Part shown: positions 18,580 through 26,679 of the stretch, one piece after another
Layout of the letters: each line of letters starts with the position of its first letter
Position numbering within the stretch: the stretch's first letter is position 1
Assembly (NCBI GenBank): GCA_964016885.1
Contig: OZ024761.1
Location: 2,046,001 to 2,110,000, forward strand
DNA: 64,000 nucleotides
Reading direction: 5' to 3'
From: Eledone cirrhosa
Taxonomy: Eukaryota
Position numbers and translations under genes: made by a program
Notes under the pieces: model-generated
Told to the model about the DNA's origin: nothing
What the model saw: only the letters and a program-made list of their open reading frames with translations
Databases searched by the model: none

Positions 18580-18813
18580 CTACAAAATACACAAATTTTT
18601 TTTTTTTTCACTTTTTAGACATTCTCACGCAAAAACTGAGATATTCCAAACTCTAATGAATAGATGCTGAAAACTGCAGCCTAAACTAACTATAACTAGA
18701 TGACATTTGATGGAAGGAAGTTTAACTAGATAAAGTTTGATGGAAAGAAAAAGAAAGAGAAAGAAAGAAAGGAAAAAAGCCAGTAGGTAAGTAGATAGGT
18801 AGATAGATAGATA

Positions 18814-19196
18814 TATTTCTTTATTAGCCACAGGGGCACAAAAGAAGGGGACAAATACAAAGGGGGAAGTTTACATACAATAAAAACGTGTAAAATGTTA
18901 TCACAGATGGAATTTAAAAGTTAGTTGATTTTCCCCAATAGAGGGAGACAGTTTATATGGGTAACACATAGCCCCGAAAAAAAATGTGCAACCCTCATCT
19001 CCAGGAGTACGAAGAGCTTGTACTCCTTTCCTCTCCTCCTCCTTTTCCTCAACCTACAGGCTGATATAGAGAGAAGGCCCATTCACTCGGGCCATTCTCG
19101 CCACTTTCACCCACCTTTCATAAAACTTGCTGGGGTACAGCACCCCTCTCTCCATCCTGATTCTTCTTCCAAAGTGGTATTTGAAAAAAAGAATCA
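18814..19196 (-). mobile_element. Heavily 5'-truncated Tx1 copy C (3' end nearly identical to copy A)
   Basis: Matches about 21077-21457 almost base for base; GATA/GGTA repeats on both sides. Confidence 0.9.
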
Positions 19197-19445
19197 GATA
19201 GGTAGATAGATAGATAGGTATGTAGGTAGAGAGACAGGTAGGTAGATAGATAGGTAGGTAGGTAGGTAGTTAGACAGACAGGTAGATTGATAGACGGGTA
19301 GGTAGGTAGACAGGTAGATAGACAGACAGGTAGATTGATAGACAGGTAGATTGATAGACAGGTATCTAGGTAGATAGGTAGATATTCAGACAGGTAGATA
19401 GATAGATAGATAGACAGGTAGGTAAGTAGACAGGTAGATAGATAA

Positions 19446-21050
19446 CTTTCTTTATTTGCCACAAGGGCGCACAAAAAAGGGGGACAATACAAGGACGCAT
19501 GCTGGGGATTTACATACAATTTGTGTAAAAATATTAACAACAAATAAATAAATTTAAACAAACAAAATCCCCAATAGAGGGGAGGGGTTACAATGGGTTG
19601 CTTTATACCCCGTAGATAGAACAACCCTCAACTTCAGGAGCATGTTGTGCAAGTGCTCCTTTCTTCCTTTTTCTCTCTTCTTTAACCTACAGGCTTATAA
19701 ACAGAGAAGGCCCAAACACTCGGGCCATTTTCGTTTCATTCACCCACCTTTCAGTAAATTTACTGGGGTGCAGTACCTCTCTCTCCACTCTGATTCTCCT
19801 TCTAAAGTGGTACCTAAAGAAGGGAATGAGTTGTTGTCCAGAGAGAAAGGCATCTGTCCTCAGTCCTCTTTCACCATAGCCACTATATAGAGGAAAACCG
19901 CCTTTCTTTCGTTTTTGAAAGAAGTTGGCGGTTTGATCCTTACTATGGACTCGGCAGTCAACTGGATTTGTCCCATACGCGACAGCAGTTGTTCTGCGTA
20001 GTTCTACAAGTCGGTTATGCCCAGACAGTGTACAATTGCGTGCAGGACGGTTTCAATGTCCTGCCCGCATCTTCGACATGTCCTCTTGGAAGGATCCCTG
20101 CCGGGGCGTCCGTGTCTGTAGATCTTGTCACGAACTGGTAGAGCTCCTCAGTGGCACTGCCAGGCCAGGGACCTTTGGAAGTTGTCCATAGGTCCCGAGC
20201 GCAAAGTCCTACCAAATGGACTGGTGAGCTCGTCGTCTTCGACGCATAGAGTCTCTCCGAGCACGTCGTCACCCTTGTGACGTACTAACCCTCTATAGAA
20301 TGTCGAAGTGGAGTCTCCACTGATTGCTGTGCCCGCTTGACAGAGGACTGTGAGCGCCTGAGCGCATTCAATGTGCCAGGCACCCATCTTCTTCAGTCTC
20401 CGCTTGACCCAGGACTGCAGCTCCGGCAGCGAGACAAGTTGCGGGAAGGCCTGTTTCACAAACGGGGCCCACACTGGTTGGGGGTCAGTGAGGAATACCT
20501 GTAGATACCGTAACCTCAGCGCATGCTTGTGCATCATCAGCCACGGCATTCCCAGCCCTCCGTTGGAAGGGTGCTGACAGCAGACGGATCTCCTCACCAG
20601 TGGAGCCTGCTTCTTCTAAAGGAACTGGAAGAGCCTGCGTTCCATCTTGGTGAGGTGTTCACGAGGACAAGGCATGATGGTCAAGCGGTAGTAGATGACG
20701 GATGCTATGAAAGTGTTCGCCACCTCCGCTCGACCTTTCAAGGATAGTTTCCACCCTGCCCAGTTCTGGGTGAGCACAAATACCTTGGCCGTGACCTCGT
20801 TCCAGTTTTTCTCCACCTGGAGGTCCGGACTGAGCCAGATCCCGAGCAATTTCACTGGTCCGTCCATCCAGCGTCCGATGACGCTGTTGGACGGCATCAG
20901 TTTTCCTCTCCACGTTCCGAGTTGCAAACCGACAGACTTGTCCGGGTTCAGTTTTGCTCCTGTGAGCCTTTTGTATTCCTGCAGTAAGTTGTTGATTGCC
21001 CCGATTTCTGACGCAATTACTGTCACATCGTCGGCATAAGCCGACACTGA
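19446..21050 (-). mobile_element. 5'-truncated Tx1-clade copy B (related subfamily)
   Basis: SAYADD through C-terminal region homologous to copy A ORF2; (GATA)n at both junctions. Confidence 0.9.
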
Positions 21051-21199
21051 CAGATAGATAGATAGGTGGATAGATATGTTTCTTTATTAGCCACAGGGGC
21101 ACAAAAGAAGGGGACAATACAAAGGGGGAAGTTTACATACAATAAAAACGTGTAAAATGTTATCACAAATGTAATTTAAAAAGTTAGTCGATTTTCCCC

Positions 21200-24100: not shown

Positions 24101-24463
24101 GTCTGGCCACGGTGTCCCGGATGGGGCATATGCGGCCACCAGTCTGAAGGCTCCACCTTCACTACCGTCAACGTCTAGGACCACCAGTCGACCCTCCGGG
24201 TCCAGATGTACCGTCTGTGTTACAAGGCCTAGGTGTTTCCGCAGCAAAACAGCAACTCCGCCCCTACCCCCCGGTTGACAGAGAGATGCATAGATCTCAA
24301 AGTCATCGAAGATGGGGGCCAGCTGTCGCTCGCTGTGGATCCTGGACTCGCAAATGGCTACCACATCCATACTGTGCGACCTGAGGTCGTTTAAGAGTTT
24401 GCCCTGTTTCCAGGGCATCCCCAGGCCGCGTACGTTCACACATCCAACTCTTATATTGGCCAT
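21200..24463 (-). pseudogene. Tx1 ORF2 (APE-RT-zf), frameshifted, with a probable linker deletion
   Basis: NVRGL, GDWN and YLDR (APE); KSPGLDG, FRPITLLN, DQSKAFDRV, RQGCPLS and YADD (RT); CPRC..ETVTHAFIQC; split across ORFs 22859-24463, 22104-22946 and 21642-22040. Confidence 0.92.
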
Positions 24464-24479
24464 GTTGGTGCTGAAAAGT

Positions 24480-26431
24480 TAAAAGAGGAAAAGAGATCAC
24501 TCACCCTTTCTCTCCTGGGGACCAGGCCGCACGATTTCCATGGGGGTGTTGGAGGGGTTGTCTGGATGGGTGGTGGTTTCCGGCGGGGTGGGGACGGAGA
24601 TGTTTGGTGGGGTGGGGTCTGGTGGGATGGGGGTGTCTGGGGTGGGGAGACATTTGAGAAGGACGCGGTTGAGTGGTTTCACGCAGGAATTCCCCACATC
24701 CTTCTCAAATGTTTCTTTTAGAGACCTATAAGTTTGTATAGGGACCCTAATCAGTTTTAGGTTCAGTTTTTTTGCTATTTTTAATAGAGTGGGCGAAAGT
24801 TTTCGCTTCGGTTTTCACCGAAGGGTCGTTCGTGATGGTCTCCATTGGTGTTTTGTTTTCAGTGTTTATGTAAGTGTAAGTGTAATTTTCCTGTGTTGTA
24901 TCCACCATATGTTTTTGTCTGTAGTTCTTGTGTGTGCTTTCGTTTTGTTGTAGGTATTTTGTTTTCAGGAGGTGGGGGTTTTGTTTGTGATGTTTTTGTT
25001 GTTTGTGTTGGTCGTTGTATGTTTGTGGTAGTGTTTGCTGGTTTTTTGCTTTTGTGATGTCTTTTCTTTCTTTTCGAGCGATGGGGTTCTCCCTCGTCTT
25101 CACTGGATGATGGCGAGATAGCCTCATCTGTTGTATCGTCTGTGTGATTGGGGAGGGGTATGTCTTGGGGAGCTGTTGTGTCTGTATGTGATTTTGCAGT
25201 GGTTTTAGGTGAAGTGGGGTTGGGTGGGACTGTGTTTGTTGTGGTTATTTTTGTGTGTTGGTGTTGTTGTTGTTGTGGTGGTGTTGGTGGTTGTGTTGTT
25301 TTGATGGGTGTCGGCAGAAGAGCCTTTTTTTGATTCATTAATTTAGGACAGGAAGCCCTCAGGTGACCCCTGCTAAAGCAATGGTAACATGAAGGCCGCC
25401 TACCCTCAACCGAAAAGTTTATGTAGGTGAGTCCGTCCAGGAGTACACGTTGTGGGATCATAGCTATTCGCTCTGGGCTCATTTGCACCAGAACTTCAAT
25501 GCTAGTCCCATTGAATACATCTCTGGGGGACTTTCCTACTGACAGTATTCTGTCTTCATCAAAATTGATGAAGCCGCACAGTATCCACCATATGTTCACC
25601 TTTGGTGTGACACTCGTGATTTTGATCTTTTGTGTCCTTTTTCCCATGTATGTAGGGAAAAAGGTGTACAGGTTGGATACAATTGGCGACACAGAGTAAT
25701 TTTGGGCCGTCAATTGATCCTTCATGAGTACCGAAATACTCCCAAAAAGTTTGCTTCTTTGAAAGAATGCAATATCATTGAATTTTTGAAAACCAGTTCA
25801 ATTTCTTTCTGTGACAATTGGACTGGTTTTGGGTAGAATTGGAAACTGTCCTAAAAACTATCGTTTTGAGAGCAGTTTCCTTGCAAATTTCTACCGGAGA
25901 ATTGATGCTGAAAGCACCATTTTTTTCGAAAGTGACATATCTCCTAGCGTCCTTTAAAAGTTGTTCAGCATTTGTTATGTCGAGATATATCAGTTCCTCC
26001 TTTTTTTTAACTGTCTGTGCAAAGGAGATTTTTGGTTTCTTTGTGGAATTATCCGTGTTGGTGGTGTTGTCATTATTGTTGTTATTGTTGTTGTTATTCT
26101 TGTTGTCACCGATGTTGATATTATTCGTATTTTCCTTGGTGTTGTTGTTGTCTTTGATGCTGGTGTTATTGGTGTTGTCTTTATTTTTTTCTTTGTTGTT
26201 GTTATCATTGTTGTTTTTATCATCATTATTGGTGTTGCTGTTATTTTTGTTGTCATTGAACTGTTTGGTGTCATTTGTGTTGTTTGGATATGAATTTGTT
26301 TTTGCATTTTCATTTCGTCTTTCCATCTCTATAGTGTCTATTGAGAAGGAAGGGGAAGAAGACGATGTTGACTGCGAGCTTTGTAGTCTTACCGCCTCTC
26401 CACCACCATTATCGTTGGATGCAGCGTTCAT
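24480..26431 (-). pseudogene. Tx1 ORF1 (gag-like), frameshifted
   Basis: ORFs 25775-26431 and 24859-25725; VEGRRPSCYHCFSRGHLRASC zinc knuckle; Asn-rich and Thr/Pro-rich low-complexity tracts. Confidence 0.85.
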
Positions 26432-26679
26432 AACGTAATCAAACTTTTACAATATTTTTTCCAAGATTCGATGGAGAAAAAATTTTTCAAATGGAATGAG
26501 TTGACCCACCACCTGAAGGTCCAGACGGGGGGTCAAGTTACACAATAATATAAAATTTAACTAAAAACTCGCGTTTTTTTCTTACATAAATTAACGGAAA
26601 CTTCTCCGCGAAGTTACACACGTCTGATAGAGAGATAGATAGATAGATAGATAGGTAAATAGATAGGTAAGTTACTTAC

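What the first reader, a model, noticed from the sequence alone, without database searches (positions are those of the whole stretch)
18780..26679. Three stacked Tx1-clade retrotransposons with every junction in (GATA)n: candidate microsatellite-targeting family
Seen: copy A (21077-26625), B (19446-21050) and C (18814-19196) are co-oriented and head-to-tail. GATA/GGTA/GACA repeats lie at A's intact 5' end (26626-26670, just inside the splice donor), between A and B, between B and C, and after C. A and C are near-identical while B is a diverged subfamily, so insertion recurred. Repeats at the 5' side of the full-length copy argue for a target rather than just a tail. Known: some Tx1-clade families (Kibi, Koshi) target microsatellites. 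I do not recall a (GATA)n-specific one.
Basis: partly seen in the sequence, partly recalled or inferred. Interest (0 to 1): 0.75.

Follow-up and report, generated by a model that had tools for sequence, protein, structure and literature searches.

The report
Octopus retrotransposon that targets GATA repeats
Three broken copies of a jumping gene are stacked in one GATA repeat inside an intron of what is likely an octopus genome, and the family inserts into such repeats genome-wide; repeat-seeking elements of this kind are known, but I found no paper naming this repeat as a target, and close sister families use other targets.

Summary
Confirmed. Copies A, B and C are co-oriented L1/Tx1-type retrotransposons with (TATC)n, i.e. 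GATA on the other strand, at all junctions. C is 96% and B 77% identical to A. A has both ends but is broken (285-bp deletion, frameshifts).

The repeat is a target, not just a tail. Among 5'-truncated copies with no older copy in front, 26 of 38 have TATC at the 5' junction, against 0.94% background. Several carry site-specific duplications, and 0 of 85 copies have poly(A).

Sister families use (ATT)n (25 of 25) or one site in a 72-bp minisatellite (25 of 25). The latter family nests inside the TATC-targeting lineages and has the same putative endonuclease hairpin.

Tx1 membership is likely, but no named Kibi, Koshi or Tx1L sequence was available. No empty allele was seen. The scan noted this family before, in this genome and in another. 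Verdict: a new member of the known microsatellite-targeting Tx1 kind.

The parts
26680..26800 (-). Host exon; the splice donor GT starts at 26679
   Evidence: Joins in frame with the next exon. Single copy in the genome.
26638..26665 (-). Degenerate TATC tract in front of A; likely the 5' copy of A's target-site duplication
   Evidence: 28-mer matching 21049-21076 with 3 mismatches; the duplication reading is inferred.
26626..26637 (-). Short TATC/TC leader, likely carried by full-length elements
   Evidence: CTCTATC directly precedes the start in 11 of 25 full-length copies, and lies within the last 12 nt in 0 of 60 truncated ones.
21077..26625 (-). Copy A: both ends present, broken ORF1 and ORF2, ends in AATAAA without poly(A)
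24860..26446 (-). ORF1 remnant: Asn-rich N-terminus and a CCHC knuckle-like motif
   Evidence: zf-CCHC E 0.1, below the Pfam cut-off.
21318..24463 (-). ORF2 remnant: APE endonuclease, RT and zf-RVT; 95-codon deletion at about 23775, frameshift at about 22950
   Evidence: Pfam PF03372, PF00078 and PF13966; tblastn with a natural copy.
21049..21076 (-). TATC tract between A and B
19445..21048 (-). Copy B: 5'-truncated, from a separate TATC-targeting lineage
   Evidence: 77% to A; tree; flanks of its relatives.
19198..19444 (-). About 250-bp degenerate TATC/TACC/TGTC host array; its last 19 nt are C's 5' duplication copy
18814..19197 (-). Copy C: 384-bp 5'-truncated copy of the A subfamily
   Evidence: 95.8% to A; alignment.
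18782..18813 (-). TATC tract after C; begins with the 19-nt duplication (18795-18813)
   Evidence: The 19-mer occurs exactly twice in 18781-19450, once on each side of C.
18417..18579 (-). Next host exon
   Evidence: In-frame join. No Pfam or PDB hit.

Best explanation
This is an APE-type non-LTR retrotransposon family, likely of the Tx1 clade and in a likely octopod genome, whose copies insert in one fixed orientation into (TATC)n/(GATA)n tracts and short TATCTA seeds, and the window holds three separate hits on one intronic array. Inferred mechanism: the endonuclease nicks the GATA strand, and the freed ...GATA-3' end pairs with a few UAUC bases at the 3' end of an RNA that runs past AAUAAA without poly(A). 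This primes reverse transcription; a second nick gives a duplication of roughly 10-20 nt or more. Each insertion leaves target on both sides, so later copies, also of sister subfamilies, stack in the same tract. Shown: flanks, orientation, duplications, absence of poly(A), stacking. Inferred: the nick position, RNA-DNA pairing, and the order B first, then A and C.
For: Full-length 5' ends: 30 of 30 fetched loci (one is A itself) have TATC directly in front. Among 85 insertions with both ends mapped, a TATC-phase hexamer lies at 77 of 85 3' junctions. At 5' junctions of truncated copies it lies in 26 of 38 solo, 13 of 14 tandem and 0 of 8 joined to element-internal sequence; the stricter solo set gives 23 of 32. 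Background is 3,740 of 399,440 positions in 20 preset 10-kb stretches. Own 5'/3' flank pairs match better than shuffled pairs (mean 10.3 vs 7.7 nt, p = 0.001). Duplications run into non-repeat letters in L033, L046 and L240, and include a repeat variant in copy C. 0 of 85 have a reversed repeat or poly(A) at the 3' junction. The perfect TATC run there has a median of only 12 nt. TATC flanks occur in at least four lineages 79-100% alike. Precedent: 3' read-through pairing raises R2Ol insertion (PMC6530143, passages).
Against: No empty allele was seen: none among the 15 of 2,175 joints shown, and there is no second haplotype in the assembly. 12 of 38 solo truncated copies lack TATC at the 5' junction, and 9 of 38 show no duplication. 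Samples are the best BLAST hits, not random draws. Several 'solo' copies sit in long arrays that may hide an older tail. Pairing of RNA with target is untested and no RNA data were examined. Tx1 placement rests on SH-aLRT support only, with one L1-like outgroup.
Confidence: 0.72

Rival explanations
1. Targeting is real but set by the endonuclease alone, as reported for TRAS1/SART1 swaps and Tx1L; the RNA 3' end plays no selecting role.
For: PMC1919474 (passages): endonuclease swaps move the insertion site, and Tx1L EN recognises about 10 bp. The endonucleases of the TATC family and the 72-bp family differ at 21% of residues, including a loop near residues 112-121; the ATT family differs at about 38%.
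Against: The putative hairpin is the same or differs by one residue between the A family and the 72-bp family, while a TATC-targeting lineage differs there. All three families end with a few bases like their own target.
Confidence: 0.2
2. The repeat is a tail made by template slippage; 5' repeats arise only because new copies land in older tails.
For: TAT follows the end in 84 of 85 copies. 14 of 60 truncated and 12 of 25 full-length copies lie behind an older tail. Full-length copies seem to carry a TATC leader.
Against: Solo truncated copies have TATC in front with no tail upstream (23 of 32). The 3' flank turns into locus-specific sequence after a median of 12 nt and matches the 5' flank. 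10 of 11 TATC arrays in the background sample have no element tail beside them.
Confidence: 0.05
3. Insertion is random; copies in repeats are retained, or stacks arise by recombination or tandem duplication.
For: One array of near-identical truncated units exists (L087), and 8 truncated copies are fused to element-internal sequence.
Against: Orientation is fixed (0 of 85 reversed). Enrichment is about 70-fold at the exact junction. The stacks mix lineages with different 5' breakpoints, and sister families in the same genome show 0 of 50 TATC 3' flanks.
Confidence: 0.03

Closest known systems
Kibi (TC)n and Koshi (TTC)n of teleosts; crocodilian Tx1 families on (TTCC)n/(TTTC)n (PMC4494074, passages and section 15; PMC3812793, passages)
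   Same: APE-type Tx1-like LINE inserted into a pyrimidine-rich microsatellite on its sense strand.
   Different: The target is (TATC)n, the host is a mollusc, and ORF2 is 1,145 aa. Kinship is untested because no labelled Kibi or Koshi sequence was available.
Keno, the U2 snRNA-targeting Tx1 (PMC4640811 and PMC4494074, passages)
   Same: U2-inserted APE elements were the best metagenome hits. Their target duplication begins with TATCT and ends with TATC, like these junctions.
   Different: The target is a repeat, not a gene. Those elements have an A-rich tail. The free tree keeps the two groups apart; the AU test does not reject joining them (p = 0.33).
Tx1L of Xenopus (target Tx1D) and crocodilian Tx1-Mar (PMC4494074, passages)
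   Same: The sister family here inserts at one fixed site of a 72-bp repeat.
   Different: That family nests inside microsatellite-targeting lineages at 87% DNA identity to A.
Octopus vulgaris 'L1-Tx1' repeat class (PMC13282606, passages and supplement row)
   Same: 80 L1-Tx1 families covering 56.3 Mb, 13 recently active; this family is likely among them or their equivalents.
   Different: The words 'target' and 'GATA' do not occur in that paper's main text; I could not see its consensus library.

Membership tests
L1 group (L1/Tx1) non-LTR retrotransposons | ORF2 with N-terminal APE endonuclease, RT and C-terminal zinc-binding domain | tested here: met
   PF03372, PF00078 and PF13966 all at or above cut-off in a natural 1,145-aa copy. 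The best PDB match is human L1 ORF2p, E 1e-49, against 5e-21 for R2.
Tx1 clade | RT phylogeny places it with Tx1 rather than L1 | tested here: inconclusive
   Groups at SH-aLRT 98 with proteins named YTX2/TX1 (Polyodon, Alligator), apart from one L1-like Anolis protein. An earlier tree gave 91, and FastTree left the node open. Those names are automatic, and no Tx1L, Kibi, Koshi or Repbase sequence was included.
Tx1 clade | Two ORFs, ORF1 with a CCHC knuckle (feature recalled) | tested here: inconclusive
   An ORF1 of about 500 aa with a CX2CX4HX4C motif is visible, but zf-CCHC scores are below cut-off.
Target-specific Tx1 (criterion of PMC4494074: one sequence type in over 20% of flanks) | More than 20% of flanks share one target | tested here: met
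   77 of 85 3' junctions and 39 of 60 truncated 5' junctions.
Kibi / Koshi | Target is (TC)n or (TTC)n | tested here: not met
   Junction positions 0-6 read TATCTAT in 79-85 of 85 copies each; one copy starts with (TC)n.
Keno | Inserted in U2 snRNA genes | tested here: not met
   No U2-like flank was seen on reading the 85 events; no Rfam scan was run on them. The 48 best U2 hits in this genome are full length, which does not exclude interrupted copies.
Already catalogued family (Repbase/Dfam) | Match to a named consensus with an annotated target | not testable with these tools
   No Repbase or Dfam access; the supplements of PMC4494074 could not be read.

The most novel reading that the evidence does not exclude
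In this octopod clade the landing site is chosen mainly by a few target-like bases at the RNA 3' end, working with a permissive endonuclease. A lineage can then switch from (TATC)n to one site in a 72-bp minisatellite, or to (ATT)n, by picking up a new read-through end. This would be a naturally RNA-retargeted APE retrotransposon, with near-identical sister families as a ready swap experiment.
Probability: 0.3. Interest if true: 0.72.

Novelty: new member of a known kind. Interest (0 to 1): 0.42.

Why it matters
It adds (TATC)n/(GATA)n to the list of Tx1 targets and extends microsatellite targeting to molluscs. The clade is abundant: 8,760 of 200,000 sampled bases. Its stacking builds multi-kilobase arrays, here about 7.5 kb of an 8.1-kb intron, in sense orientation, starting some 50 nt after a splice donor and carrying three AATAAA signals, which could affect the host transcript (untested). 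The wider value is the trio of sister families at 74-87% DNA identity with three different targets. They offer a direct way to test how much of APE-retrotransposon target choice comes from the endonuclease and how much from RNA-DNA pairing; PMC3812793 (2013) calls the mechanism of microsatellite targeting poorly understood.

Tried and rejected
Empty allele: contigs of 4 runs laid on 18000-26990 showed no joint skipping the stack among the 15 of 2,175 joints listed. Repeat depth swamps the signal, so this is no evidence either way. The exon search found no second haplotype. No RNA holder was listed.

Descent from Keno: suggested by the shared TATCT...TATC junction, but not supported by the free trees and not rejected by the AU test (p = 0.33); left open.

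The first flank classifier wrongly called long TATC flanks 'internal' and was redone; its host class gave 17 of 28.

The 3' hairpin before AATAAA folds but not beyond chance (z -1.0 and -1.5).

Host gene: no Pfam or PDB hit for three exons; the resemblance to PLEKHM2/SKIP is recalled only.

The protein Atlas gave no result. The careful IQ-TREE run did not finish, so quick trees were used.

Metagenome relatives (25-44% identity) showed no TATC flanks in the 18 of 80 loci looked at. The nearest ~40% sister group of proteins has no names or flanks.

Kojima and Fujiwara 2004 and Christensen 2000 are not held.
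Full report
1. What is in the window. The window lies in a 3.0-Gb animal genome. The closest named protein relative is from the octopod Argonauta hians (63% identity), so the host is likely an octopus (inference). Three co-oriented elements lie on the - strand: A 21077-26625, B 19445-21048 and C 18814-19197. C is 95.8% and B 77.1% identical to A. A encodes APE, RT and zf-RVT domains. Against a natural copy with an open 1,145-aa ORF2, A lacks 95 codons, has a frameshift near 22950 and has stops, so it has both ends but is not intact. 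All junctions lie in TATC/TACC/TGTC tracts, and the only five perfect runs of three or more GATA units in the window are at these junctions. The stack fills about 7.5 kb of an 8.1-kb phase-0 intron (18580-26679) whose exons join in frame. The host gene has no Pfam or PDB match; a PLEKHM2-like PH-domain gene is my recollection only.

2. Local target duplications. C is flanked on both sides by the same 19-mer, including a TACC variant; it occurs exactly twice in 18781-19450. A is flanked by 28-mers (26638-26665 and 21049-21076) that differ at three positions, with 12 extra bases between the 5' copy and the element start. B shows no clear duplication. The simplest history (inferred) is a degenerate array of about 300 bp just after the splice donor, hit first by B and later, separately, by A and C.

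3. Target or tail. Searches of the own genome return only the 40 best of 757-3,406 candidates, so all counts are samples of best hits. Full-length 5' ends: 30 of 30 fetched loci (29 besides A) have TATC directly in front. This is weaker than it looks. 20 of 25 full-length junctions end in TCTATC. CTCTATC directly precedes 11 of 25 full-length starts and lies within the last 12 nt of 0 of 60 truncated ones. A short leader therefore likely travels with the element.

I then mapped both ends of 85 insertions (25 full-length, 60 truncated). Left out were loci whose 5' end lay outside the fetched DNA, loci fetched twice, one segmental duplicate (L128), window copy B, and neighbours under 89% identity. 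A TATC-phase hexamer lies at 77 of 85 3' junctions. At the 5' junction of truncated copies it lies in 26 of 38 solo copies, 13 of 14 behind an older tail and 0 of 8 fused to element-internal sequence; all truncated copies together give 39 of 60. Dropping six doubtful solo rows gives 23 of 32 (A-type 14 of 19, B-type 9 of 13). The background is 0.94% (3,740 of 399,440 positions in 20 preset 10-kb stretches).

A copy's own flanks match better than shuffled pairs (10.3 vs 7.7 nt, permutation p = 0.001), though 9 of 38 show no duplication. In L033, L046 and L240 the duplication runs into non-repeat letters. Orientation is fixed and there is no poly(A): 0 of 85 each. The perfect TATC run after the element has a median of 12 nt, and the run before solo copies is often under 15 nt. 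So the preference is strong but relaxed: a short seed suffices. In the background sample 10 of 11 TATC arrays have no element tail beside them, so the repeat exists independently of the element.

4. Sister families with other targets. The background sample held two relatives with different flanks. One, 74% identical to A, is followed by (ATT)n in 25 of 25 loci. 7 of its 10 truncated copies also have ATT in front, three of them behind older tails (read by eye; background 1.4%). The other, 87% identical to A, ends at the same base of a 72-bp minisatellite in 25 of 25 loci. Neither has a TATC 3' flank (0 of 50).

Of 107 copies long enough to place, 74 have TATC, 19 the minisatellite, 13 ATT and 1 another flank. 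In a tree of 25 representatives the minisatellite family sits inside the TATC lineages (SH-aLRT 96 and 99, midpoint root on the ATT branch, two changes of target). Only the 3' part of ORF2 was used, so recombination is not excluded. The stretch that I take, from recall of L1/TRAS1 alignments, to be the specificity hairpin is the same or differs by one residue between the A family and the minisatellite family. One TATC lineage differs more there, and other loops do differ. The TATC and minisatellite junctions share TCTAT at the same distance from AATAAA. This fits RNA-assisted choice but does not prove it.

5. Mechanism. Target-primed reverse transcription is established for this class (PMC1919474, passages). 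Here the 3' flank reads TATCTA on the element strand, so the primer would be the GATA strand (inferred). With no poly(A) to pair, the simplest primer-template match is a few read-through UAUC bases; this is known to help R2Ol (PMC6530143, passages). Each event duplicates target, which explains stacks of mixed lineages. The endonuclease-only model remains the main rival.

6. Classification. The architecture and the best PDB match (human L1 ORF2p) place it in the L1 group. RT trees group the octopod clade and an unnamed ~40% sister group with vertebrate proteins named YTX2/TX1 (SH-aLRT 91, 98; open), apart from one L1-like protein. Five metagenome relatives are inserted in U2 snRNA, as Keno is, and their duplication begins TATCT and ends TATC. 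The free tree does not join them to this family, and the AU test is neutral (p = 0.33). Contigs from two other organisms have depth in 30 of 30 bins across the stack, so relatives occur beyond this genome.

7. Literature. Seen: PMC4494074 (passages, section 15; supplements unreadable), PMC3812793, PMC4640811, PMC1919474 and PMC6530143 (passages), and PMC13282606 (passages and one supplement row). Known microsatellite targets listed there are (TC)n, (TTC)n, (TTCC)n/(TTTC)n, AC, ACAY, TAA and (TG)n. Searches turned up no paper naming a (GATA)n/(TATC)n target, judged from listings and the passages read. Repbase, Kojima and Fujiwara 2004, and the unread supplements could still hold one. The scan itself noted the family, the ATT sister and the 72-bp sister earlier; those notes are leads, not support.

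8. Verdict. This is a new member of the known microsatellite-targeting Tx1 kind, interest 0.42. The bold reading, target switching through the RNA 3' end, has probability about 0.3.

Noticed in passing
L065, L063, L080, L066, L091, L098, L088 (just downstream of the A-type copy): Other elements with different 5' ends follow in the same TATC tracts. In six of these seven, all but L091, GTAAG lies about 20-35 nt after the start, like a splice donor at the beginning of the 5' UTR.
   Followed up: no
L046 (about 1300-1900): An A-family copy inserted into the 72-bp minisatellite at a TATCTA-bearing variant, with a 13-17-nt duplication; the same repeat is the fixed target of the sister family.
   Followed up: partly
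L151, L152, L154, L158, L161; L193: Keno-like APE elements inserted in U2 snRNA in metagenome contigs; L193 lies next to a U1 gene.
   Followed up: partly
window 11990-12870: Old relative of the same clade (65-76% DNA identity), no GATA at its ends, tail eroded, in a further intron of the host gene.
   Followed up: partly
window 13132-13308, 18417-18579, 26680-26800 (- strand): Three host exons; they resemble PLEKHM2/SKIP from recall, with no database hit.
   Followed up: partly
window 7333-8346 and 37099-38781 (- strand): PHD-finger ORFs, one with an RT domain, likely CR1-type LINE remnants.
   Followed up: no
window 29229-35055, 27860-29142, 13338-14616: Large tandem arrays: a 30-bp unit in about 190 copies, a GGATGGTA-type array and a (GGT)n-rich array.
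   Followed up: no
L264-L280 (contig C3, about 307.35-307.45 Mb): Tandem array of U2 snRNA genes at about 2.2-kb spacing.
   Followed up: no
P0299 with P0343 and P0274: A tick (Nuttalliella) RT groups tightly with lizard RTs in the trees, a possible horizontal transfer.
   Followed up: no
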